This document shows, one piece after another, positions 5,196-45,762 of a stretch of 64,000 nt of DNA. This DNA is from an uncultured delta proteobacterium (GTDB taxonomy: Bacteria; Desulfobacterota; Syntrophorhabdia; Syntrophorhabdales; WCHB1-27). The notes under the pieces are model-generated. The model made no database searches, had not been told where the DNA came from, and worked only from the letters and a program-made list of their open reading frames with translations. The stretch spans positions 73,106-137,105 of the forward strand of contig CAVQYC010000005.1 of NCBI GenBank assembly GCA_963717985.1, read 5' to 3'. Each line of letters begins with the position of its first letter. Position 1 is the stretch's first letter. A program made the position numbers and the translations under genes.

Positions 5196-6503
5196 TCACG
5201 GTTTTCCCATAAAGAAGTTAGGCAGAAAGGTCGCAATGTCAGGGAACAGGAAGAGGAGCGCGGCACAACCGATGAGACCGAGCAGGAAGGGCAATACCCC
5301 CCGGTAGATGACGCCGAAAGGTACTCCGGTAATGTTCTTCACGACGAAGACGCAGATGGCGACGGGCGGTATGATGACGCCGATCATGATCGTGATGCCT
5401 ATCTGGATCCCGAACCAGATGGGATCGTAGCCGAGCTTGACGACTGCGGGGTAAAAGATCGGGGTTGCAAGGATCATGAACGCGAGGTCGTCGATAAAGG
5501 ACCCGCCAAGCAGATAGATGAGGATGATAAGTATCATGACGAGCCATCGGGCAAAAGGAAGGCCCACGACCCAGTCTGCAGCGATGAAGGGTATCTGCGT
5601 AACGGCAAGGAAATGCCCGAGCACCGCAGAGCCCCAAATGAGAAAGAGCACCATACAGGCCGTCCTGAGTGATTCATCGAAGGATTTGACGAGCCTCTTC
5701 CAGCCAAGCTCCCGTCTCGCCGCGGCGAGGACCAGTACGCCGAGCGTTCCTATCGTGCCGGCTTCCGTCGGGCTGAATATCCCTGTCATGAGGCCGCCTA
5801 TGACGGCAATAAAAATAACGGCCACCCAGATGAATTCCGGGAGGGCATGCATCCTCTCGTGAAGCGAAGCCTTTTTGCTGGCCGGTGCGATGGAAGGATT
5901 TATCTTCACCCACCCGTAGATGATGAAAATGAAAAAGAGAGAGATCAGCAAGCCGGGCACGATGCCGGCGAGAAAGAGCCTGCCGATGGATTGCTCCACC
6001 ACGATGCCGTAGATAATGAGAACGATGCTCGGAGGGATGAGCATGCCGAGGGTGCCGACCGATGCGACGATGCCCGTGGAGAGCTTCTTGTCGTAGCCGT
6101 AGCGGTCCATCTCGGGAATGGCGATGCCCGCGAAGGTCGCGGTCGTCGCGAGGGTCGATCCGCACATGGCCTTGAAGAGGGTGGCCCCCACGACCGTCGT
6201 CATGGCGAGACCGCCGGGGATATGACCTACCCACTTATGAGCGCTCTGGTACAGCCTTTTCGCGATGTCCGCATTCGACGCGATCTGCCCCATGAGGACA
6301 AAAAGCGGTATGACCGTGAAGCCGTAGGAGGTGAAGGTGTCGAAAAAATCTTTGACCAGCAGGTTGCATGCCGGGGCGAAGCCGACCAGGTAGGCAAAAC
6401 CGATGAAACCTATCACCGCCATGCCGAAGGCAAGTTCTATGCCGGTGAGGAAGACGAGCATCAGTATGATGAGGGCGGTGATTCCCGTTATCACTTCACT
6501 CAT
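5196..6503 (-). CDS. dctM: TRAP transporter large permease
   Basis: 435-aa polytopic membrane protein. It overlaps the small-permease gene by 8 nt. Gene order is the typical DctP-Q-M order. Confidence 0.85.
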   Translation of the reverse strand: MSEVITGITALIILMLVFLTGIELAFGMAVIGFIGFAYLVGFAPACNLLVKDFFDTFTSYGFTVIPLFVLMGQIASNADIAKRLYQSAHKWVGHIPGGLAMTTVVGATLFKAMCGSTLATTATFAGIAIPEMDRYGYDKKLSTGIVASVGTLGMLIPPSIVLIIYGIVVEQSIGRLFLAGIVPGLLISLFFIFIIYGWVKINPSIAPASKKASLHERMHALPEFIWVAVIFIAVIGGLMTGIFSPTEAGTIGTLGVLVLAAARRELGWKRLVKSFDESLRTACMVLFLIWGSAVLGHFLAVTQIPFIAADWVVGLPFARWLVMILIILIYLLGGSFIDDLAFMILATPIFYPAVVKLGYDPIWFGIQIGITIMIGVIIPPVAICVFVVKNITGVPFGVIYRGVLPFLLGLIGCAALLFLFPDIATFLPNFFMGKP

Positions 6504-33991: not shown

Positions 33992-35098
33992 ATGAAGGCG
34001 TTGAACATTACCATTGACGGCGTTAAGGTGGGATCCCCTTCGGGTGCCACCATCCTAGAGGCAGCGGAAAAAGCAGGCATCGAGATTCCACGGCTCTGCC
34101 ACCAGGAAGGGATCAAGCCGTCGGGTAACTGTCGCGTCTGCGTTGTTGAGGTGGAGGGCTCACGTACGCTTGTCGGTTCGTGTCATACGCCCATAGTCGA
34201 GGGCATGGTCGTCCGCAGCCGCTCCCCTAGGGTTCTTGAAGCCAGGAAGACAACGATAGAGCTTCTCCTCACCGGTCACACGGGGACGTGCGTCACGGAT
34301 ACGGAGGCCCGGGAGTGCGCCCTGCACAAGCTCGCTTCCGATCTCGAGGTGGGTCCTCCCCGCCTCCACGTGAAGCGCCCCCGTCTCTATGCCGTAGAAG
34401 AGGGTCCTTACGTGCGGAGGGACATGTCGCGGTGCATCCTCTGCAGGAAGTGCATCCGCGCCTGTAAGGAGGTTGCCGGACAGAACATTTACAGCATGGC
34501 CTATAGAGGTTTCGACTCGAAAGTGGTGGTCGACTGCGACATCCCCCTCAATAAGGAGGTTTGTAAGGACTGCGGCGTCTGTATCAAGTACTGTCCCACG
34601 TCTGCTCTCATGTGGCCCGAAGGGGTGAAGAAGAGAGACGGCGCGACAAGGAAAAAGGCCACCGCGGCCATACCCGGCAACGGTCATTCCACGAGGCTCC
34701 TCGATCTGCTGAAAAACCGTCTTCGCACGGAAGGCTCTCTCTCTCGGGAGTCCTTCTCCGAGATCGCCCGTGATCTCGATCTCCCTTTGAGCGACGTCTA
34801 CGGTGTGGCGACCTTCTACTCCTTTCTTTCGACTAAGCCCCGGGGCAGACACGTGATCAGGGTCTGCAAAAGCCTTCCCTGTTATCTCAAGAATGGTCTG
34901 ATGATCATTGACGCAGTATCCAGGACGATAGGCATCGGGGTCGGTGGGACCACCGCGGACGGCAGGTTCTCCTTTGAGCTGACGAATTGCGTCGGGGCAT
35001 GCGACAAAGCCCCGGCCATGCTCGTCGACGATACAGTCTACGGGGACCTCACGCCGGATACAATCGTAGATGTTCTGAAGTCGTACGGAGGGAAGTAG
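33992..35098 (+). CDS. fusion protein: NuoG/HydA-type N-terminal [2Fe-2S] + 2x[4Fe-4S] module fused to a NuoE-type thioredoxin-like [2Fe-2S] domain
   Basis: SD GAGGTGG upstream. Motifs LCHQEGIKPSGNCRVCVVEV, CILCRKCIRAC, CKDCGVCIKYCP, then VCKSLPCYLKNG...NCVGACDKAP. Confidence 0.8.
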   Translation: MKALNITIDGVKVGSPSGATILEAAEKAGIEIPRLCHQEGIKPSGNCRVCVVEVEGSRTLVGSCHTPIVEGMVVRSRSPRVLEARKTTIELLLTGHTGTCVTDTEARECALHKLASDLEVGPPRLHVKRPRLYAVEEGPYVRRDMSRCILCRKCIRACKEVAGQNIYSMAYRGFDSKVVVDCDIPLNKEVCKDCGVCIKYCPTSALMWPEGVKKRDGATRKKATAAIPGNGHSTRLLDLLKNRLRTEGSLSRESFSEIARDLDLPLSDVYGVATFYSFLSTKPRGRHVIRVCKSLPCYLKNGLMIIDAVSRTIGIGVGGTTADGRFSFELTNCVGACDKAPAMLVDDTVYGDLTPDTIVDVLKSYGGK

Positions 35099-35100
35099 CC

Positions 35101-36309
35101 ATGACAGAGAGAATCGTCCTGCGATACAGCCACGCAATTGACCCGGACGATATTGCCGCATATGTCCGACGGGGTGGTTTCCATGCCTTCTCCAAAGCCC
35201 GGAAGATGGGCCGCGAGAAGGTCATCGCCGAGATTAAGGCATCAAATCTTAAAGGACGGGGAGGAGCGGGTTTCCGCTGCGGGATAAAATGGGAACTCGC
35301 GGGAAAACAGGCGAGCCATGAGAAATACCTCATCTGCAACGCCGATGAGGGCGAGGTGGGGACCTTTAAAGACCGATATATCATCGAGCACGACCCCTTT
35401 GCCTTGCTCGAAGGTATCGCCATCGCCGCGTACGCCGTAGGAGCGCATCACGCCTACCTATATCTCCGGGCAGAGTACCACTATCTTCTTGATAGACTCA
35501 AACGTGCAGTCGACCTGGCTGCTTCCAAAGGTCTTATCGACCTGTCCATTGAAATACGAGAAGGTGCGGGCGCCTATGTCTGCGGCGAGGAATCGGCGCT
35601 TATGAACTCTATCGAGGGCAAACGCGGAGAGGCCCGATTCCGTCCCCCGTTTCCCCCCACCAGCGGTCTCTTCGGCAAGCCCACCGTTATCAACAATGTA
35701 GAGACCCTGATGAATGTGGCGCCCATCATCGACAAAGGGGCCGCCTGGTTCTCTTCCATCGGCACCTCCTTCAGTACGGGCACGAAGGTCTTCTCCGTGA
35801 GCGGTGATGTGGCAAAACCCGGGGTTTATGAGTTCCCCATGGGTGTCCGCCTCTCCGAGCTCTTGACCCTCGCGGGTGCCTCCGATATTAAGATAGTCCA
35901 CATCGGCGGTGCCGGCGGCGGGGTTGTTCCCGTCTCCATGATAGAGACTCCCCTTTCTTACGAGACGGTCCTCGGGTCGGGTGCCATCACAGTGCTCGAT
36001 GCCACGAGAGACGTCATCGATTTCGTCTCGCGCACCCTCGATTTCTTGAACGGGGAGTCCTGCGGAGAGTGCACCCCGTGCAGGGAGGGTACGGAGGTGA
36101 TGGTGGAGATCCTAGGCAGGCTCGCTGAAGGCGATGGCGTCCCGGAAGACATTGAGCAACTGGAGCGGCTTTCCAGGGTCATGGTGGGCTCCTCCCTCTG
36201 TGGCCTCGGTCAGGCAGCCCCGGTCCCAGTCCTCGACACCCTCAAGTACTTCAGGAACGACTACGAGAACAGGATCAAACAGTCGGTGTTTTTGAGGACT
36301 TTGAGATGA
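35101..36309 (+). CDS. NuoF-like NADH-binding FMN/[4Fe-4S] flavoprotein
   Basis: ATG lies 3 nt after the upstream stop. Motifs GRGGAGF, NADEGEVGTFKDR, ESCGECTPCREG, SLCGLGQAAP. Confidence 0.85.
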   Translation: MTERIVLRYSHAIDPDDIAAYVRRGGFHAFSKARKMGREKVIAEIKASNLKGRGGAGFRCGIKWELAGKQASHEKYLICNADEGEVGTFKDRYIIEHDPFALLEGIAIAAYAVGAHHAYLYLRAEYHYLLDRLKRAVDLAASKGLIDLSIEIREGAGAYVCGEESALMNSIEGKRGEARFRPPFPPTSGLFGKPTVINNVETLMNVAPIIDKGAAWFSSIGTSFSTGTKVFSVSGDVAKPGVYEFPMGVRLSELLTLAGASDIKIVHIGGAGGGVVPVSMIETPLSYETVLGSGAITVLDATRDVIDFVSRTLDFLNGESCGECTPCREGTEVMVEILGRLAEGDGVPEDIEQLERLSRVMVGSSLCGLGQAAPVPVLDTLKYFRNDYENRIKQSVFLRTLR

Positions 36310-36399
36310 GAGGAAAGCGTTGTGTGCGCAAGGCTTCGCCCGTTTGCGCAGGCGGTAGGGGAGACGGGAGCCGAGAGCACGTGATCAAGGAGGAGCGAT

Positions 36400-36969
36400 A
36401 TGGAACCTGTTTGCCTTTGTCCTTACTGTAGAAAGCGCTTTGCCGACCATGAGTTACTCAAGGCCCACGTGGTTGAGGAGCACGGGTCCGCTCCTTTGCC
36501 CAAGCCCGACGGACACATTACGCTTACCGTCAATGGCCAGCGCTACGAGCAGAAGGTAGAGCCGGAATGGACGCTGCACTACCTGCTTCACGATAAGCTC
36601 GGTTTTACCGGCGCGAAACAGATGTGCGACCGCGGGGTCTGCGGCTCGTGTACGGTGATCATGGACTGTAAGGCGATACTTTCGTGTATGACCCTCGCCA
36701 TAGAATGCGACGGAAAACGAGTGGAAACGGTGGAGGGCATTGCCGCAGCCGATCACCCGCTCATCGAGGAATACGTAAAACACCATTGCATGCAGTGCGG
36801 TTATTGCACGCCGGGTTTTGTAGTGACGGCAAAGGCCTTGCTCGACAAAGACCCCGATCCTACGGAGGAAGAGATCAGAGAGGCCCTGGGAGGCAATCTT
36901 TGCCGGTGCGGAACGTATCCTCAGCATCCCAAGGCGGTGCTGGCGGCAGCCCGAAAGCTGGTCAAATAG
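36400..36969 (+). CDS. [2Fe-2S] small subunit of a xanthine-dehydrogenase/CO-dehydrogenase-family enzyme with a 37-aa N-terminal C2H2 zinc-finger extension
   Basis: SD AAGGAGG is 6 nt before ATG 36400. Motifs CDRGVCGSCTV, QCGYCTPG, CRCGTY. N-terminus reads CPYCRKRFADHELLKAHVVEEH. Confidence 0.85.
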   Translation: MEPVCLCPYCRKRFADHELLKAHVVEEHGSAPLPKPDGHITLTVNGQRYEQKVEPEWTLHYLLHDKLGFTGAKQMCDRGVCGSCTVIMDCKAILSCMTLAIECDGKRVETVEGIAAADHPLIEEYVKHHCMQCGYCTPGFVVTAKALLDKDPDPTEEEIREALGGNLCRCGTYPQHPKAVLAAARKLVK

Positions 36970-37062: not shown

Positions 37063-38037
37063 ATGGAATCCTTTTCACACTTCAACGCGCAAACAATTGA
37101 CGACGCTGTTTTGATACTGAGGAGGTATGGCGACAGGGCCCATGTGATCGCGGGCGGCACCGATCTCATCGGCAAGATGAAGGATAGAATACTGCCGGGA
37201 TACCCAGAAGCCCTGGTAAACATTAAGACTATCCCGAACCTAGGTTTTATAGAAACAAGAAACGGCATGGCGAGGATCGGCCCACTCTGCACGCTTGAGG
37301 AAATTGCGAAGAGCGAAATGGTAACCCACCATTGGCCGGCATTGACACAAGCAGCGGCCAGAGCTGCATCCCCTCATCTCAGGGAAATGGGGACCATCGG
37401 CGGCAATATCTGTCAGGATATCCGGTGCTGGTACTATAGAAGCCCCGACAACCGGTTTCCATGTCTCAGAAAAGGTGGAGGGAGGTGTTATGCCATCGAG
37501 GGAGACAACCGCTTTCATTCCATATTCGGCGGAAGTGTACAGGAAGGGTGCTGTGCCGTTCATCCTAGCGATGTCGCACCGGCCCTGGTTGCGCTCGGTG
37601 GCAGCGTGAAGACCACACAAAGGACGGTACCGATAGAGAGCTTCTTTAGGGTTTCGGTACAGCAGACGACCATCCTGGATGCGGATGAGATCGTGACGGA
37701 GATCCGGCTTCCATTACCGGCGGAAGGCACCAAGAGCGCTTTTGGGAAGTTTGCCCTGAGGGCATCGATCGACTTCCCCATAGTGAATTGCGCCGCGGCC
37801 GTCACCGTTTCGCAGGGAAGGGCTATCGCCGCAAGGATCTGTCTCAACGCCGTATACGTCACGCCATACAGGCCCGCCGCGTCAGAAGAGGCGATCCTTG
37901 GAAAGCCGCTCACCGATATGAATATAGAACGCGCCGCGGATGCGGCCGTATCCGGCGCCAAGCCGCTGAGCCGTAACCGATATATGGTCCAGATTGCCCG
38001 GACCATGGTCAAGAGGGCATTACTCGCCTGCAGGTAG
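37063..38037 (+). CDS. FAD-binding medium subunit of the XDH family with a Cys-rich insertion
   Basis: SD GGAGGAGG upstream. VIAGGTDLIGKMK and TIGGNIC are FAD_binding_5 hallmarks. Insertion reads CQDIRCWYYRSPDNRFPCLRKGGGRC. Confidence 0.8.
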   Translation: MESFSHFNAQTIDDAVLILRRYGDRAHVIAGGTDLIGKMKDRILPGYPEALVNIKTIPNLGFIETRNGMARIGPLCTLEEIAKSEMVTHHWPALTQAAARAASPHLREMGTIGGNICQDIRCWYYRSPDNRFPCLRKGGGRCYAIEGDNRFHSIFGGSVQEGCCAVHPSDVAPALVALGGSVKTTQRTVPIESFFRVSVQQTTILDADEIVTEIRLPLPAEGTKSAFGKFALRASIDFPIVNCAAAVTVSQGRAIAARICLNAVYVTPYRPAASEEAILGKPLTDMNIERAADAAVSGAKPLSRNRYMVQIARTMVKRALLACR

Positions 38038-38244
38038 TGCGATGACCGTGAGCGTGAGGGTCTTTTAGCCACCGACAGAACCGGGGTGCTCACGAAGAAC
38101 GGTTCCCTCTTCCTCCGTACCGGGGGATGAACATTACGCGGTGGCTTCCAGAGGGCGGGATCTCGCTCTATACCTCGAGTTTAGGCCGAAGTCCACACAA
38201 ATAGGTTGACATTCATTCTGGCTGTGTTGTATGAAGTGGAAGGA

Positions 38245-38757
38245 ATGAAGCTCGGCAGCGCGCAAGATTACAAGTTCACCGACCTTGTTACGATCAAGAC
38301 CATTCAAGACCTTGTAAACCGCTTTCATGCATTGACAAGAAGGGGCATAGCGGTTTTCGGCGTGGACGGGAGCATATTGGTAAGCTCGCCCGGGCAGCGT
38401 CTATGCCTCGGTTTCCACCGCAAGAATCCGCATTCCGCAAAACTGTGCAGGGAAAGCGACCTCGCGATAACCAGGTTAATAGATCAAGAGAAAGGTTGCG
38501 TTATCCATAGATGCAAGCACGGCTTGATAGATTTTGCGGCTCCCGTGGTGGTTGAAGGCAAGCACATCGCCAACGTTTTCGGCGGGCAGTTTTTCACAGA
38601 AAGGCCGGATATGAAATTCTTCGAGGAGCGGGCCGGGACATTCGGATTCGATGTGGCTGAATACCTGGAGGCATTACGTGAGGTGCCGGTCCACAGAAAA
38701 AGCAGCATCAAGGTGATTCTCGAGGTATCTCGAGGGGTTCGCTCAACTCCTGGCTGA
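38245..38757 (+). CDS. PocR ligand-sensing domain ORF (5' part of a frameshifted sensor kinase)
   Basis: ...CLGFHRKNPHSAKLCRESD...HRCKHGLIDFAAPVVVEGKHIANVFGGQF. Start is uncertain (TTG 38206 or ATG 38245). Confidence 0.65.
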   Translation: MKLGSAQDYKFTDLVTIKTIQDLVNRFHALTRRGIAVFGVDGSILVSSPGQRLCLGFHRKNPHSAKLCRESDLAITRLIDQEKGCVIHRCKHGLIDFAAPVVVEGKHIANVFGGQFFTERPDMKFFEERAGTFGFDVAEYLEALREVPVHRKSSIKVILEVSRGVRSTPG

Positions 38758-38758
38758 C

Positions 38759-39859
38759 ATGGCTCAAGGGCGAATGCGGGAGTTGGGGGGTGAAGTCGCA
38801 TTGCGTGAGAGTGAAAAGAAATACCGCAGTATCTTCGAGAACGCTGCCGAAGGAATATTCCAGGCGACTGTGGAGGGTCGTTATTTGGACGTGAATCCCG
38901 CCTTTACTTCCATGCTCGGTTATGCAGACTCGAAGGAGTTGATTACAAGAGTTACCAACATCCGAGGGCAACAGTTCGTGAAGCGTGAGGATGCCGTGCG
39001 ATTTGAGAAGCTCCTTCGGGAGAACGGTACGGTGCAGGAATTCGAGACGCAGTTCTATAAAAAAAATGGACGAAAGACCTGGCTATCAGTAAACGCGCGG
39101 GTCGCTCACGGCAGGTGTGGGGGGCTGTTTTACGAAGGGACTGCAAAGAATATTACGAAACAGAAAGAGGCGGAACAAGCAACGCTGGCCGCACGAGAGA
39201 GGCTGCAAAGCCTGTCTCGAAGCCTGCTGCAAAGAATGGAAGCAGAACGGCACCTCTTGGCTTATGAGCTCCATGATGAAATAGGTCAGGTATTGACGGC
39301 CGTGAGAATCAACGTAGACTCGGTGCGACGTCTGGCTGACGAGTCAGAACGCGCCTCTCGAATAGACGAAAGCATTGAGATAATCGATAAGGCACTTGCT
39401 CAGGTTCGCGCTTTGTCGCTGAACCTGCGGCCGTCGATGCTGGACGATTTGGGCCTCGTGGTCGCGCTTAGATGGCTTGCGGACAGTGTGTCCAGAACTT
39501 ATCCCGTGAACATAAAGGTAGATGCCGGACCGATCCGCACACGGTTGGATGCGGAGGTTGAAACCACCTGTTTTCGGGTAGCCCAGGAGGCTGTGACAAA
39601 CGCCTTACGACACGCAAAACCGGACGAGATTCGTATTTCTGTCAAGGAACAACGTAACAGGCTCCACCTGCGTGTCTGTAACGACGGGACAGGTTTTAAC
39701 GTTAAGTTGGCTCGCGCGCTTGCCGTTCGGGGGGAGAGCTTTGGTTTGCTTGGAATGGAAGAACGCGTCTTGCTATGCGGCGGTGTTTTTCGTATTGTCT
39801 CTCAAACAGAAAGCGGCACACAATTGGTGGCAATACTTCCGCTTAAAGGGGGCATCTGA
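38759..39859 (+). CDS. PAS + HisKA_3 + HATPase_c histidine kinase part (NarX/DegS-type)
   Basis: PAS region (SEKKYRSIFENAAEGIFQ), H-box LAYELHDEIGQVL, and an ATPase C-terminal part. The frame continues upstream into the PocR ORF if 10 nt are removed. Confidence 0.75.
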   Translation: MAQGRMRELGGEVALRESEKKYRSIFENAAEGIFQATVEGRYLDVNPAFTSMLGYADSKELITRVTNIRGQQFVKREDAVRFEKLLRENGTVQEFETQFYKKNGRKTWLSVNARVAHGRCGGLFYEGTAKNITKQKEAEQATLAARERLQSLSRSLLQRMEAERHLLAYELHDEIGQVLTAVRINVDSVRRLADESERASRIDESIEIIDKALAQVRALSLNLRPSMLDDLGLVVALRWLADSVSRTYPVNIKVDAGPIRTRLDAEVETTCFRVAQEAVTNALRHAKPDEIRISVKEQRNRLHLRVCNDGTGFNVKLARALAVRGESFGLLGMEERVLLCGGVFRIVSQTESGTQLVAILPLKGGI

Positions 39860-40532: not shown

Positions 40533-41649
40533 ACTCTTCTCCAGAATTAAGTAACGATTGGAGTCGCCGCAGACGCAACTTTTATGGGATTATCCATGAG
40601 ATCGCAGAGGGCATGATCGGCCCTCTCGATCAGGGCAGCTTTGCTCTTGCAGTGGATGTTCGCGAAGTGCTCGGCCTTCATGATGAGCCAAACCCTTTCT
40701 ATAGGATTGAAGTCTGGCGAATAGGGAGGAAGATAAACCGGTTCAAAGAAGTGCCAGTTAAGACTCTTCCGTTTATGCCAGGAAGCATTATCGAGAATGA
40801 GAATATTCCGTTTCCGGGAAGGGGTGATTGATTGAGCGGCTTCATCGAGGAATGCCTGGAAAACATCCGTATCGCAATGACTTGCCTCAATGGCGAAGAA
40901 CTCCCCGGTGCGGGGGCAGACGGTTCCAACGATGTTCAGCCGGATATGATCGCCATTATGGACTACTCGGGGCTTAGATCCTTTCATGGCCCAACCCCGA
41001 CGCGGTCTCGGTTCACCGTCAATTCCGGTTTCATCCCCGTACCACAGATCAACGTCGGGATGCTCCGCAAGGCTCCGTAGTTGATCCTTGAACTCCTCTC
41101 TCAGCTTCTCATCCTGTCTGTCCGGCCAGGGCCTCGGCACTTTCAGTACATAGCCCTTCTCGTGGAGAAGACGAAGAACCGTGTTGTAGGAACACTCAAC
41201 GGAGTACTTGGCCGTGATGTGACCATGGAAGGCAGAGGCTGTCCAGAACGTCCTCTGGGCGCGTCCCGGTTCTTCGAACTCTTCGATAATCTCTTCTTTC
41301 TTTTCGCCTGTAATAAGAGGTTTGCGTCCTGTCCGTCTCTTCGCAACAAGACCGTCGACGCCATAGGCATTGAAGGCCCTGATGATCTTCTTTATTGCGC
41401 TCTCCGACAGAACGAGCACCTTCATCGCCTGTTCCCTGGGAGAGCCGGTGAGAAGCATGATAATAACAAGGCATCGCCGATCGGTTTCCTTGTTGCCGGC
41501 CTTCCGAACTGCCTGAAGATCGGCGAGCGATGCGTTCTCCCCATTGGGAGTGAGATACCGTTGGGCCATGATTCATATGTAACCACATGTCTCTAGGAAT
41601 GTCTAGAATTATCAACATCAAACGGTAATTATTTCTGAGAAACGCTCTA
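40530..41649 (-). mobile_element. IS630-family insertion sequence, copy B (same orientation as copy A)
   Basis: Offset is +26,906 nt from copy A. All six-frame ORFs have identical translations, and the ends read identically. Confidence 0.9.
40547..41569 (-). CDS. IS630-family DDE transposase (identical to 13641-14663)
   Basis: Identical 340-aa translation. Confidence 0.9.
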   Translation of the reverse strand: MAQRYLTPNGENASLADLQAVRKAGNKETDRRCLVIIMLLTGSPREQAMKVLVLSESAIKKIIRAFNAYGVDGLVAKRRTGRKPLITGEKKEEIIEEFEEPGRAQRTFWTASAFHGHITAKYSVECSYNTVLRLLHEKGYVLKVPRPWPDRQDEKLREEFKDQLRSLAEHPDVDLWYGDETGIDGEPRPRRGWAMKGSKPRVVHNGDHIRLNIVGTVCPRTGEFFAIEASHCDTDVFQAFLDEAAQSITPSRKRNILILDNASWHKRKSLNWHFFEPVYLPPYSPDFNPIERVWLIMKAEHFANIHCKSKAALIERADHALCDLMDNPIKVASAATPIVT

Positions 41650-43048: not shown

Positions 43049-43291
43049 GTGACGATACAGGTGAAAATTTACGGCACCCTCCGCTATTACAAAGAGATCG
43101 TAGAAAAGTACATTTCAGGAGAGAAGGTCGAGGTTCCGGAAGGTACGTCCGCCGGCGCAATTCTCGAGATGCTCCATCTACCGGAAAGGGTCGCGACAAT
43201 TCTTATCGTGAACGGGGCGTACACGGACAAGAAGAAGATACTGAAGGACGGGGACGCCGTTTACATCATCTCGCCCGCGAGCGGGGGATAG
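43049..43291 (+). CDS. ThiS/MoaD-family ubiquitin-fold protein ending in Gly-Gly
   Basis: VTIQVKIYGTLR...DGDAVYIISPASGG-stop. GTG 43049 has SD AAGGTGGGG; ATG 43010 is an alternative start. Confidence 0.7.
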   Translation: MTIQVKIYGTLRYYKEIVEKYISGEKVEVPEGTSAGAILEMLHLPERVATILIVNGAYTDKKKILKDGDAVYIISPASGG

Positions 43292-43302: not shown

Positions 43303-45762
43303 TTGAGGAAGACGAAAAACGGCATTATCGAGGAAGAGTCAAAGATCCTGGAGCTGATGGACAATCTGAGGGCAGACAAATATCCCCGCCGGACGTATGA
43401 CTGTATAGGGAGACGCGGTGTAAGGCGCGTCGACGGATTCGAGAAGGCGAGCGGGGAAGCCCTTTACACATTTGACGTGGCGCTGCCGGGGATGCTCTAT
43501 ATGCGGTTTCTTACCTCGCCCTATCCACACGCGAAAATCGTTCGAATGGACACGAGCAAAGCTGAGGCCCTGCCAGGGGTAAGGGCAGTACTGAGGTATG
43601 ACGACCCAGACCTGCCGGTGTCAGCCGACCTGGGGGGTCACGTGGTTTCATCGGAACGCGTTATCCCCGACACGGCCTACTTTCAGGGAGAGGAAGTAGG
43701 AGCGGCGGTGGCGGCGGACACCGAGCAGATAGCCGAGCAGGCACTGCGTCTGATACAGGTGGAATGGGAGCAGCGTCCTTTTCTGCTTGATGGAGAGGAA
43801 GCGGTGAAACCTGGCGCCATTCTCGCCAACCCTGAATTGCTCCCTGCCGGTAACGTCTTCAACCGGGGCATCGATATCGAGGAGACGGGCGATGTCGATA
43901 AGGGTCTGGCGGAAGCAGACAGAATCATCGAGTTCGAAATCCGCCGCACGGCAAACACCTGGATCGGGCCGGAACGTCCTTGCGGTGTCTTCAAGTGGAA
44001 TGGAGAGTATCCCGAAGTGTGGGTCAAACAACAACGGCCCCACGTATGCAAGCGCGTCGTTGCGTCATGGTTCGGCGGGATGCCGGTGAACAAGGTCCAG
44101 ATGCACTGCCTGTACCAGGGGGCGAGCTTCGGGGGGTGGAGCCAGATGCCGTGGAACATGGGCGGACATTACTGCGCCGCGGTTGTGGCAGCAAGGACTC
44201 GGAGACCGGTGAAATGGGTGTTCACCAGAAGGGAAGATTTCTACGGCGGGCAGATGGATGAAGGGACTTACTTTTTCAAGGTCGGCGTGGACAACGATGG
44301 GACGATCAAAGCCGTCAAGGTGCACGCCATACTGGTCAACCTGATGATACCTATCTTCGGCATTATCAAGCACCTCATCGAGAACACGAAAATTCCGAAT
44401 ATCTATGGAAAGTTAGAGGCGGTGAAAGTCAATAAGGGTACCAATGTTCCGGTACGCTGCGAACAGGCGCCCAACGTAATTGCCCTTTCCATGGTCTTTG
44501 ATCGCGTAGCGAGCGTCCTGGAGCTTGATCCTATAAACGTTGCCTTGAAGAACGATGGGGCGAACGGCCACGACATGAAATGGCTCAACGAGAAAAAGAA
44601 GGAGTTAGGATTCCCTATACGAGATAGCTTGGCCGAATGCATAGAAAAGGGTCGGGCAGCCATTGGCTGGGATGAAAAATGGCACCTTCCGGGCATGAAG
44701 AGGCTTCCAAACGGCAGGATGCATGGGATTGCCTTTACTTGGGCGCACGAATGGGAGGATTCTGCGGGATCGAGCGAAATAGCACTACGTATTGAGCGAA
44801 CTGACGGAAGCGCAACCATTCTTGGAATGCGGGCCGATAACGGGGTAAACGCCGAAACGGCCTACTGCCAGATCGCAGCGGATGAGCTTGGGATGCGCAT
44901 CGAGGACGTTTATTACAGACCTCATCACGATACCGGTTTTTTTCCGATGACTCCCGATTCCTCCACCAACATGTCTGTAAATGGGTTTGCGATCCGAAAT
45001 GCCGCGAGAATCCTGAAAAAGAAGATACTTAAGGCGGCGACGAGTCCGATGGGGGAGACGCAGAGGGGCGCTTTTCCAGTTCCTTTTCCTGAGATGGAAC
45101 CGGAGGATCTCGATATCAAGGACAGCGTCATCTACGTCAAATCCGATCCGTCAAAAAGGATGTCGATAGCAGAATTGGTCGGTCCTTCAGGGGCAGGCGG
45201 ACCAATTATTCAGGGCGATCTGGGGATGGAGGGGGCTACGAGGGCGCCCTTTAGCGCGCCCCTCTTTGCCCATAGCTGGCAGGTGCAGGACGGAGCCTAC
45301 GCCCATGCCAGGCTTCGGATGTGCCGTCAGGCACATTTTATGGAGGTTGAGGTCGACACGGAGACCGGGGAGGTCGAAGTAACGAAGGTAGTGATCGTTA
45401 ACGACGTCGGCAAGGTGATATCTCCCGAAGGAGCGGAAGGGCAGCAGTACGGCGGCGCATATATGGGTGTCGGAAGGGCGAGGAGTGAAGAGGTGATACA
45501 TGATCCGGTGACAGGCGTGATGCTTAATGGCAACCTCCTTGACTATAAGATAGCAACTATGAATGATGTCGGCTCTGTCGATACTATTCTCGTGGAGACC
45601 GGTATGGGCTATGGCCCCTACGGTACTGTCGGCATCGGTGAGGACGTCGCAACGGTTGTCCCCCCCCTCCTCGGCCCGGCAGTTCATAACGCCATTGGCG
45701 TCTGGGTTGACGAGTTTCCTCTCACGCCCGATAGGGTGTTGAAGGCCCTTGGGAAGGCGTAG
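43303..45762 (+). CDS. molybdopterin-binding large subunit of the xanthine-dehydrogenase/aldehyde-oxidase family
   Basis: RRVDGFEKASGEALYTFDVALPGMLYMRFLTSPYPHAKIVRMDTSKAEALPGVRAV is the family N-terminus. Start is TTG 43303 (SD GGGGAGG) or ATG 43357. The first 99 codons of the track ORF overlap the MoaD-like gene and are rejected. Confidence 0.85.
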   Translation: MRKTKNGIIEEESKILELMDNLRADKYPRRTYDCIGRRGVRRVDGFEKASGEALYTFDVALPGMLYMRFLTSPYPHAKIVRMDTSKAEALPGVRAVLRYDDPDLPVSADLGGHVVSSERVIPDTAYFQGEEVGAAVAADTEQIAEQALRLIQVEWEQRPFLLDGEEAVKPGAILANPELLPAGNVFNRGIDIEETGDVDKGLAEADRIIEFEIRRTANTWIGPERPCGVFKWNGEYPEVWVKQQRPHVCKRVVASWFGGMPVNKVQMHCLYQGASFGGWSQMPWNMGGHYCAAVVAARTRRPVKWVFTRREDFYGGQMDEGTYFFKVGVDNDGTIKAVKVHAILVNLMIPIFGIIKHLIENTKIPNIYGKLEAVKVNKGTNVPVRCEQAPNVIALSMVFDRVASVLELDPINVALKNDGANGHDMKWLNEKKKELGFPIRDSLAECIEKGRAAIGWDEKWHLPGMKRLPNGRMHGIAFTWAHEWEDSAGSSEIALRIERTDGSATILGMRADNGVNAETAYCQIAADELGMRIEDVYYRPHHDTGFFPMTPDSSTNMSVNGFAIRNAARILKKKILKAATSPMGETQRGAFPVPFPEMEPEDLDIKDSVIYVKSDPSKRMSIAELVGPSGAGGPIIQGDLGMEGATRAPFSAPLFAHSWQVQDGAYAHARLRMCRQAHFMEVEVDTETGEVEVTKVVIVNDVGKVISPEGAEGQQYGGAYMGVGRARSEEVIHDPVTGVMLNGNLLDYKIATMNDVGSVDTILVETGMGYGPYGTVGIGEDVATVVPPLLGPAVHNAIGVWVDEFPLTPDRVLKALGKA

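What the first reader, a model, noticed from the sequence alone, without database searches (positions are those of the whole stretch)
36400..36510. Eukaryote-style C2H2 zinc-finger consensus fused to the N-terminus of the [2Fe-2S] small subunit
From the SD-supported ATG 36400 the protein starts MEPVCLCPYCRKRFADHELLKAHVVEEHGSAPLPKPDGH before the normal family start ITLTVNGQRYE. Residues 7-28 fit the classical pattern C-x2-C-x3-F-x5-L-x2-H-x4-H exactly, including the conserved Phe and Leu. No alternative start with a ribosome-binding site lies between this segment and the ferredoxin domain, so the finger should be translated. Classical C2H2 fingers are rare in bacteria, and Ros/MucR-type fingers differ from this pattern. 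I know of none attached to a molybdoenzyme Fe-S subunit. It could be a docking module for the Nuo-like partners, a structural Zn site, or a nucleic-acid-binding moonlighting domain.
Basis: partly seen in the sequence, partly recalled or inferred. Interest (0 to 1): 0.6.

Follow-up and report, generated by a model that had tools for sequence, protein, structure and literature searches.

The report
Zinc finger on molybdoenzyme iron-sulfur subunit
The iron-sulfur subunit of an uncharacterised bacterial molybdenum enzyme really does begin with a conserved, animal-style zinc finger, which most likely acts as a small zinc-stabilised docking piece inside a multi-subunit redox complex and not as a DNA binder.

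Summary
ORF 36400-36969 has a strong Shine-Dalgarno site and an in-frame stop 18 nt upstream. It starts with C7-x2-C10-x3-F14-x5-L20-x2-H23-x4-H28, followed by a normal XDH/CoxS-type double [2Fe-2S] domain.

- **Conservation:** 119 of the 120 closest database homologues keep the finger (107 distinct finger sequences). Cys, Cys, His and His are invariant and pN is well below pS.
- **Fold:** AlphaFold predicts a beta-beta-alpha fold. The family profile and Foldseek match only classical C2H2 fingers.
- **Precedent:** no solved XDH-family structure has this finger, and I found no paper describing it.
- **Own genome:** only 2 of 13 small-subunit paralogues carry the finger. These are exactly the two that lie behind NuoG/E-like and NuoF-like genes.
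- **Other genomes:** 18 intact cytoplasmic loci show the same linkage, two have NuoF remnants, and one has no NuoF nearby. A sister clade carries the finger behind a Tat export signal without NuoEF.
- **Against DNA binding:** the finger is acidic and lacks base-reading residues.

My best reading is an accessory protein-protein adaptor, probably for the NAD(P)H module in this locus. The partner is inferred, not shown. Earlier notes of this scan reported the same finger on other genomes.

The parts
36387..36395 (+). Shine-Dalgarno sequence AAGGAGGAG before the ATG at 36400
   Evidence: Read directly. Equivalent SD-plus-start arrangements lie upstream of the finger in L086, L004, L087, L088, L001 and L092.
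36400..36969 (+). Gene for the 189-aa [2Fe-2S] small subunit (P0001) with an N-terminal zinc finger
   Evidence: Pfam Fer2 and Fer2_2. NCBIfam hits to XDH-family gamma subunits, all below the equivalog cut-offs.
36409..36489 (+). Classical C2H2 beta-beta-alpha zinc finger, residues 4-30. Ligands C7, C10, H23, H28. Core residues F14 and L20.
   Evidence: Ligands invariant in alignment A1 and in 119 of 120 homologues. AF2 pLDDT about 91 with a bba fold. Profile A2 and Foldseek match only classical C2H2 fingers.
36490..36516 (+). Conserved Pro-rich linker (S-A-P-L-P-K-P-D-G, residues 31-39) joining the finger to strand 1 of the ferredoxin domain
   Evidence: P34 and P36 at least 90% conserved, G38 invariant. 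pLDDT about 80 in the full-length model against 58 in the finger-only model.
36517..36966 (+). Plant-type plus helical [2Fe-2S] domains (residues 40-189). All eight Cys ligands are invariant. Clade motif GNLCRCGTYPQH.
33992..35098 (+). NuoG-N-terminal-like (Fer2_4 + Fer4_Nqo3) fused to a NuoE-like thioredoxin-type [2Fe-2S] protein
   Evidence: Pfam. The same gene lies upstream of finger-bearing small subunits elsewhere.
35101..36309 (+). NuoF-like FMN/[4Fe-4S] NAD(P)H-binding subunit, ending 90 nt before the finger gene
   Evidence: Pfam Complex1_51K, SLBB, NADH_4Fe-4S. Linkage shown.
37063..38037 (+). FAD medium subunit with a Cys-rich HcrB-like loop
   Evidence: Pfam. Loop sequences compared across loci.
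43049..43291 (+). ThiS/MoaD-like beta-grasp protein ending in GG. A component of finger-type loci.
   Evidence: An HMM finds it only in cytoplasmic finger-type loci among the fetched loci.
43303..45762 (+). Molybdopterin large subunit (start codon uncertain). Separated from the other subunits by a split PocR kinase, a response regulator, an IS630 copy and a Zn-ADH.
   Evidence: Pfam. L004 shows the same order without the IS.

Best explanation
Residues 4-30 form a single classical Cys2His2 beta-beta-alpha zinc finger. It is translated as the N-terminus of the [2Fe-2S] small subunit and held by a conserved Pro-rich linker next to the plant-type ferredoxin domain. It is an accessory, zinc-stabilised protein-protein interaction module, not a nucleic-acid reader. 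In this locus its most likely job is to help attach or orient the separately encoded NuoG/E-like and NuoF-like NAD(P)H dehydrogenase module on the XDH-type core (small, FAD and Mo subunits). Electrons could then pass between NAD(P)H/FMN and the Fe-S/FAD/Moco chain. Shown here: the finger is real, conserved, under purifying selection and classical in sequence and predicted fold. It is also linked to NuoEF genes. Inferred: zinc binding, the partner surface, and the direction of electron flow. Sub-probabilities: real translated metal-binding finger 0.93; protein interaction or structural role rather than nucleic-acid binding 0.85; NuoG/E-NuoF module as the partner 0.4.
For: 1. Conservation. 119 of 120 best homologues (63-89% identical, 107 distinct finger sequences) keep C, P, C, H, H, with F/L/Y and L/I/V at the core positions. 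Over 33 codons, pN is 0.09-0.26 against pS 0.45-0.84 in five of six comparisons (0.46 against 0.89 in the most distant, L088). SD-plus-start arrangements are conserved upstream.
2. Fold. AF2 gives a bba fold with pLDDT about 91. All top-50 Foldseek PDB matches are classical C2H2 fingers, and the closest superpose at rmsd 0.3-1.4 A over 23-29 residues. Profile A2 hits PDB C2H2 fingers only, for example ZFAT 2elo at 1.7e-6.
3. Accessory nature. Sister lineages in the same 100/99-supported clade (L007, L009, L010, L013, L015-L017) have the same three-subunit core but no finger.
4. Link to NuoEF. In the window's genome only 2 of 13 small-subunit paralogues have the finger, and they are exactly the 2 with NuoG/E and NuoF genes directly upstream. 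The same arrangement occurs in L001, L003, L004, L005, L086, L088-L096, L099 and L101. NuoF remnants lie upstream in L097 and L098.
5. Alternative modules. Close finger-less relatives use other electron modules. L009 has a GltD-like insertion in the FAD subunit, and its large subunit is 63% identical to the window's. L010 has EtfBA downstream.
6. Not a DNA reader. Mean net charge of the finger is -1.4. Helix positions -1, 2, 3 and 6 are S/T/D, E/D (97%), A and A/S. Homologous fingers sit behind Tat signals in exported enzymes.
Against: The finger is kept in contexts without NuoEF. Five Tat-exported small subunits (L006, L008, L011, L012, L014) have no NuoF within 8 kb. One intact cytoplasmic operon (L102) has none within 10 kb. 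A NuoEF-specific role therefore cannot be the whole story. All NuoEF-linked fingers form one clade, so the co-occurrence may reflect a single evolutionary event. No complex model could be computed, because only single chains can be folded and no coordinates or PAE are returned. Metal content and contacts are untested. The Pfam single-finger scores are below the gathering thresholds.
Confidence: 0.6

Rival explanations
1. The finger is an intrinsic structural or assembly element of the molybdoenzyme core. It would clamp the small subunit to the FAD or Mo subunit, or to the second protomer, whatever the electron-transfer partner.
For: It is retained in three contexts: NuoEF-linked, Tat-exported without NuoEF, and a cytoplasmic operon without nearby NuoEF. 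The linker is conserved in all types (P31 invariant in A2; P34, P36 and G38 in A1). The linker pLDDT rises from 58 to about 80 in the full-length model, which hints at packing on the core.
Against: Sister lineages with the same core subunits and the same Cys-rich FAD-subunit loop lack the finger, so the core does not need it. No insertion or loop in the medium subunit tracks with the finger.
Confidence: 0.27
2. The finger is a receptor, analogous to ubiquitin-binding C2H2 fingers (UBZ), for the ThiS/MoaD-like beta-grasp protein encoded in the operon. It might act during cofactor maturation.
For: An HMM of the GG-ended ThiS-like protein finds it in 8 of 11 long cytoplasmic finger-type loci (window, C8 paralogue, L001, L004, L005, L097, L101, L102). 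This includes L102, which lacks NuoEF. It finds none in the 76 finger-less rows or in the 5 Tat-type loci. An acidic residue (E/D, 97%) is conserved at the start of the helix.
Against: The co-occurrence lies within a single clade. L003 and L099 lack the protein, and so do all Tat-type finger loci. The window's finger gave no UBZ-family Pfam hit. From my own knowledge, operon-encoded MoaD-like proteins are usually explained by cofactor synthesis alone.
Confidence: 0.06
3. The finger binds DNA or RNA, giving the enzyme subunit a moonlighting regulatory role.
For: Classical C2H2 fingers are best known as nucleic-acid binders. The closest PDB sequence and fold matches are DNA-binding fingers. The window's copy has R11, K12 and R13.
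Against: There is a single finger with no TGEKP-type linker. Mean net charge is -1.4, and the base-contact positions are S/T/D, E/D, A and A/S. Homologous fingers are exported by the Tat pathway. The R-K-R stretch is not conserved.
Confidence: 0.04
4. The finger is not part of the mature protein, either because translation starts downstream or because it is a decaying relic.
For: In-frame GTG (V24) and TTG (L33) exist, and a weak AAGG precedes the GTG.
Against: The ligands are invariant across 107 distinct finger sequences. pN is well below pS. The SD and start codon upstream of the finger are conserved in all relatives examined.
Confidence: 0.02

Closest known systems
Classical (TFIIIA/Krueppel-type) Cys2His2 zinc finger, Pfam PF00096 / PF13894
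   Same: Exact C-x2-C-x3-F-x5-L-x2-H-x4-H spacing, hydrophobic core and predicted beta-beta-alpha fold. The family profile retrieves only such fingers from the PDB.
   Different: It is a single finger in a bacterial enzyme subunit. It is acidic, has no base-reading residues and no TGEKP linker. It is fused to Fe-S domains, and some relatives are Tat-exported. Single-finger Pfam scores fall below the gathering cut-offs.
Protein-binding C2H2 fingers such as the pol eta-type UBZ, KCMF1 and ZFAT fingers
   Same: The proposed work-alike: a bba finger used for protein contacts. H-x4-H spacing followed by Pro/Gly resembles ZFAT and KCMF1, which are among the best sequence matches.
   Different: No specific family-level match. 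The partner here is unknown.
Ros/MucR prokaryotic zinc finger
   Same: A bacterial Cys2His2 zinc site.
   Different: From my own knowledge, Ros has C-x2-C-x9-H-x3-4-H spacing inside a larger domain of about 58 aa and binds DNA. Here the spacing is x12 and the module is about 27 aa.
XDH/CODH-family [2Fe-2S] small subunits: CoxS/CutS, HcrC, PaoA and glyceraldehyde oxidoreductase gamma (PDB 4zoh_C, 1ffu_A, 1rm6_C, 5g5g_A)
   Same: Residues 40-189 align end to end (E down to 3e-45), with all eight cluster cysteines present.
   Different: None of the 37 PDB sequence matches covers residues 1-32 of the query. This clade also has GNLCRCGTYPQH in place of the usual CRCTGY.
4-hydroxybenzoyl-CoA reductase HcrCAB of Thauera aromatica
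   Same: A three-subunit XDH-family enzyme whose FAD subunit carries an extra Cys-rich loop. The window's medium subunit has a similar loop.
   Different: HcrC has no finger. No NuoEF module is known for it. The substrate of the window's enzyme is unknown, and NCBIfam scores are far below the equivalog cut-offs.
C2H2 finger proteins of archaeal viruses (B-129, PDB 2wbt; AFV1p06, 2lvh)
   Same: Non-eukaryotic classical fingers. The model superposes on 2wbt at rmsd 0.6 A over 26 residues.
   Different: Those are free-standing viral proteins, not enzyme subunits.

Membership tests
Classical C2H2 zinc finger (PF00096/PF13894) | Ligand spacing C-x2-4-C-x12-H-x3-5-H | tested here: met
   C7, C10, H23, H28. 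Invariant in A1 and in 119 of 120 homologues.
Classical C2H2 zinc finger (PF00096/PF13894) | Conserved hydrophobic core (aromatic at C2+4, Leu at +10) | tested here: met
   F/L/Y in 117 of 119 and L/I/V in 118 of 119.
Classical C2H2 zinc finger (PF00096/PF13894) | Score above the Pfam gathering threshold | tested here: not met
   16-22 bits against cut-offs of 25.2 and 27. This is usual for a lone finger. Related multi-finger proteins pass, and the family profile hits PDB fingers at 1.7e-6.
Classical C2H2 zinc finger (PF00096/PF13894) | Beta-beta-alpha fold | tested here: met
   This rests on prediction only. AF2 pLDDT is 83-91. All top-50 Foldseek PDB matches are C2H2 fingers, the closest at rmsd 0.3-1.4 A. 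E-values are not significant for a 35-residue model.
Classical C2H2 zinc finger (PF00096/PF13894) | Binds one Zn(II) tetrahedrally | not testable with these tools
   Needs metal analysis of the purified protein.
DNA-binding polydactyl zinc-finger proteins | Tandem fingers with TGEKP-type linkers and basic or polar residues at helix positions -1, 2, 3 and 6 | tested here: not met
   A single finger. The positions are S/T/D, E/D, A and A/S. Mean net charge is -1.4.
Ros/MucR prokaryotic zinc finger | C-x2-C-x9-H-x3-4-H within a globular domain of about 58 aa | tested here: not met
   The spacing is x12 and the module is about 27 aa. The Ros definition is from my own knowledge.
XDH/CoxS-family [2Fe-2S] small subunit | Fer2 plus Fer2_2 domains with eight conserved Cys ligands | tested here: met
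   PF01799 at 2.4e-27 and PF00111 above its cut-off. C76, C81, C84, C96, C133, C136, C168 and C170 are invariant.
XDH/CoxS-family [2Fe-2S] small subunit | Encoded with an FAD medium subunit and a Moco large subunit | tested here: met
   Medium subunit at 37063-38037 and large subunit ending at 45762. The paralogue on C8 is a compact operon.
4-hydroxybenzoyl-CoA reductase gamma subunit (TIGR03193) | Equivalog-level score | tested here: not met
   146 bits against a cut-off of 257.8.

The most novel reading that the evidence does not exclude
Classical C2H2 fingers are an unrecognised class of bacterial protein-docking modules. In this reading the finger is the dedicated plug that couples a NuoEF-type NAD(P)H module, or the operon's ubiquitin-fold ThiS-like protein, to an XDH-family molybdoenzyme. 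Its exported cousins would do the same outside the cytoplasm. That would define a new modular way of wiring molybdenum hydroxylases or reductases, and would offer a prokaryotic, non-DNA-binding origin for the eukaryotic finger.
Probability: 0.2. Interest if true: 0.75.

Novelty: new variant of a known kind. Interest (0 to 1): 0.5.

Why it matters
Both parts are well known: the C2H2 finger and the CoxS-type Fe-S subunit. Their fusion is absent from all solved XDH-family structures and from the literature I could search. Yet it is conserved in many uncultured anaerobes and soil bacteria.

If the finger is the adaptor for a NuoEF-type module, it marks a family of NAD(P)H-linked molybdoenzymes with unknown substrates, present at up to five copies per genome. 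It would also give a simple handle (delete it or mutate the ligands) to test how such complexes assemble.

For zinc-finger biology, the finding adds abundant bacterial classical fingers that evidently do not read DNA, including exported ones.

Tried and rejected
- **Word search on residues 1-40** (search for homologous proteins) returned only the query itself. It gave no family count.
- **Foldseek with the full-length model** matched only the Fe-S part of XDH small subunits, so the finger had to be modelled alone.
- **Finger versus Cys-rich loop.** I tested whether the finger tracks with the HcrB-like loop of the FAD subunit. This was rejected, because the loop is common in finger-less loci too.
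- **A regulatory RNA in the 90-nt gap before the gene.** The fold z-score is -0.23 and there is no Rfam match.
- **The 157-aa ORF on the minus strand (36454-36927).** I treat it as a shadow of the coding frame.
- **Literature.** Seven literature searches found no description of a finger on a molybdoenzyme Fe-S subunit, nor of a NuoEF-linked XDH-family enzyme. The Bfu survey PMC9304861 does not mention xanthine or molybdenum partners.
- **Taxonomy of the window's genome.** It could not be obtained through locus handles.
- **Complex modelling.** No multimer prediction is offered, so the contact partner could not be modelled.

Full report
**The observation**

Window 36400-36969 (+) encodes a 189-aa protein, P0001. 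AAGGAGGAG lies at 36387-36395, and an in-frame TGA at 36382-36384 excludes an earlier start. Residues 7-28 (CPYCRKRFADHELLKAHVVEEH) fit C-x2-C-x3-F-x5-L-x2-H-x4-H exactly.

From residue 40 the protein is an ordinary XDH/CoxS-type small subunit. Pfam Fer2_2 scores 2.4e-27 and Fer2 passes its cut-off. NCBIfam hits to gamma subunits all fall below equivalog cut-offs. On the 39-residue segment alone, Pfam C2H2 models score 20-22 bits against cut-offs of 25-27. That is usual for a lone finger.

The strict pattern occurs only twice in 4.1 million six-frame ORF residues of the whole genome. Both hits are at the N-termini of small subunits, and shuffled ORFs gave 0-1 hits. A profile of the finger finds only these two sites.

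**Conservation**

Among the 120 best database relatives (63-89% identical, 174-225 aa), 119 carry C-x2-C-x12-H-x4-H ahead of the ferredoxin domain. The exception is a gene call truncated at its 5' end.

- In a 42-sequence alignment C7, P8, C10, H23, H28 and G38 are invariant. Y9, P34 and P36 are at least 90% conserved.
- The 119 fingers comprise 107 distinct sequences.
- Against six relatives, the 33 finger and linker codons show pN 0.09-0.46 against pS 0.45-0.89. Each relative has its own SD and start codon 5-13 codons before the first Cys.

The finger is therefore translated and under purifying selection. The extra Cys5 of the window's copy is not conserved.

**Kind of finger**

AlphaFold2 on the 42-sequence alignment predicts two short strands (residues 5-6 and 13-14) and a helix (17-28), with pLDDT about 91. 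A model of the finger alone gives the same fold.

All top-50 Foldseek PDB matches to that model are classical C2H2 fingers. Examples are CTCF at 0.3 A over 24 residues, Tramtrack at 0.5 A over 26, B-129 at 0.6 A over 26 and ZFY at 1.0 A over 27. Their E-values are not significant for so small a domain.

A profile of ten fingers (A2) matches only C2H2 fingers among PDB sequences. The best single-domain hit is ZFAT 2elo at 1.7e-6. Against 1.84 billion representative proteins it gives 1834 hits at E up to 1e-3, led by multi-finger proteins.

No PDB relative of the small subunit covers residues 1-32. The spacing differs from Ros/MucR (my own knowledge of that family).

**Context in the window and its genome**

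The gene is third in a co-directional set:

- a NuoG-N-terminal::NuoE-like fusion (33992-35098)
- a NuoF-like protein (35101-36309)
- the finger-bearing small subunit
- an FAD medium subunit with a Cys-rich loop (37063-38037)

A PocR sensor kinase (split in two), a response regulator, an IS630 copy, a Zn-ADH, a ThiS-like GG protein and the Mo large subunit follow.

The whole genome has 13 XDH-type small-subunit genes. Only two have the finger, and exactly those two lie directly behind NuoG/E and NuoF genes. The second is a compact operon on contig C8 with the order NuoGE-NuoF-small-large-medium.

**Other genomes**

- NuoG/E and NuoF lie directly upstream of finger-bearing small subunits in L001 (where they are fused into one 774-aa protein), L003, L004, L005, L099 and L101. 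The same holds in 10 of 11 loci from relatives.
- L097 keeps a 30-aa NuoF remnant, and L098 keeps a C-terminal half of NuoF.
- One intact cytoplasmic operon, L102, has no NuoEF within 10 kb.
- In the window's own family 14 of 22 genomes have the finger type, with up to five copies in one genome. None of 19 genomes in sister families do.
- In an even sample of 400 genomes of the phylum, eight more genomes in four families carry it.

**A second context**

Among GTDB loci sharing the clade motif NLCRCGTY, five small subunits have a twin-arginine signal, then a homologous finger (FRCPICAKDF...LKSHF..AHPG), then the Fe-S domains. Four are from Acidobacteriota and one is from Eggerthellales. None has NuoF within 8 kb.

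A maximum-likelihood tree puts all 11 finger-bearing sequences in one 100/99-supported clade of 19. They fall into two sub-clades, Tat-type (100/97) and NuoEF-linked (97/87). A single origin is not excluded.

The eight finger-less members of that clade have the same core subunits. The Cys-rich loop of the FAD subunit is widespread in finger-less loci, so it does not track with the finger.

Two close finger-less relatives use other electron modules. L009 has a GltD-like insertion of about 470 aa right after the Cys loop of its FAD subunit, and its large subunit is 63% identical to the window's. L010 has EtfB and EtfA genes downstream.

**Function**

Nucleic-acid binding is unlikely for four reasons:

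- there is only one finger
- its mean net charge is -1.4 (range -4 to +2)
- helix positions -1, 2, 3 and 6 are S/T/D, E/D (97%), A and A/S
- homologous fingers are exported

Sister enzymes work without the finger, so it is accessory, not essential to the core. Its tight genomic coupling to a separately encoded NuoG/E-NuoF module is suggestive. So is its absence where the NAD(P)H module is inserted covalently (L009) or replaced by ETF (L010). Both points favour an adaptor that helps dock the electron-transfer partner.

The Tat-type loci and L102 show that this cannot be the only role. The finger may use other partners there, or it may clamp the core itself. Acidic positions 9, 12 and 21 are conserved in the NuoEF type but not in the Tat type. 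That pattern fits one scaffold with different partners.

A ThiS/MoaD-like GG protein is a further clade-specific neighbour. It occurs in 8 of 11 long cytoplasmic loci, including L102, and in none of the 81 other rows. I keep it as a low-probability alternative partner. From my own knowledge, such genes are usually explained by cofactor maturation.

The NuoF-like protein has only the Complex1_51K, SLBB and NADH_4Fe-4S domains. From my own knowledge of the Bfu family, this looks like a plain NAD(P)H module, not a bifurcating core. I did not test this.

**Novelty**

No paper in the searchable library describes the fusion. The public precomputed Pfam annotation lists PF13894 for only 4 of the 120 relatives.

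Earlier notes of this scan (e1-4534444, e1-3011761) report the same finger on other genomes and reach similar conclusions. They are not independent evidence.

I class the finding as a new variant of known kinds. The mechanism remains open and is directly testable.

**Limits**

The co-occurrence counts are phylogenetically non-independent.

Noticed in passing
P0144, P0158, P0171, P0172, P0165, P0149, P0151, P0126, P0230, P0225: The finger profile retrieves small proteins with an N-terminal signal or membrane anchor followed by 2-5 tandem fingers (Y.CPYCGA.F.T.EEL.AHI...HP), often ending HPGERIPI[DE]IIW. It also retrieves a Sec-signal protein (P0230) with a single Acidobacteria-type finger fused to an unrelated domain. 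This suggests an unstudied class of exported prokaryotic C2H2 fingers.
   Followed up: partly
L009:10646-13320: In an Actinomycetota relative, the FAD medium subunit is interrupted right after its Cys-rich loop by a GltD-like domain of about 470 aa (Fe-S motifs plus an NAD(P)H/FAD-binding GxGxxG). This points to that loop as the entry point for NAD(P)H-derived electrons.
   Followed up: partly
L010:12057-15032: A Desulfobacterales relative without the finger has a 373-aa protein with no Pfam hit, plus EtfB and EtfA, directly after its small-large-medium genes. It has the same PocR kinase and regulator pair upstream as the window.
   Followed up: no
window 38206-39859: The PocR sensor and the PAS/HisKA_3/HATPase kinase are two adjacent ORFs here, but one 541-aa protein in the syntenic locus L004. 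The window's copy therefore appears split by a frameshift.
   Followed up: partly
window 40547-41569 (-): An IS630-type transposase gene sits between the response regulator and the Zn-ADH. The syntenic locus L004 has no such insertion, so the IS separates the Mo large subunit from the rest of the operon.
   Followed up: no
window 43049-43291 and G000:C5:595205-595423: The ThiS/MoaD-like GG protein upstream of the large subunit has a 100% identical partial copy (73 of 80 residues) about 479 kb away on the same contig.
   Followed up: no
L097 (G003:C30) 5321-5410 and L098 5350-5982: Two finger-type loci keep only remnants of NuoF (30 aa and 210 aa) upstream of an intact finger-bearing small subunit. 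In L098 the large subunit is also truncated. These are decaying or rearranged copies, or assembly errors.
   Followed up: partly
G001 (same genus), five places listed: One relative carries five separate finger-type small-subunit genes. This suggests a substrate-diversified family of these enzymes within a single organism.
   Followed up: no
L012:7754-8275: Downstream of the Tat-type finger enzyme in an Eggerthellales MAG lies a small lipoprotein-like ORF with two CxxCH haem-binding motifs. It is a candidate extracytoplasmic electron partner.
   Followed up: no
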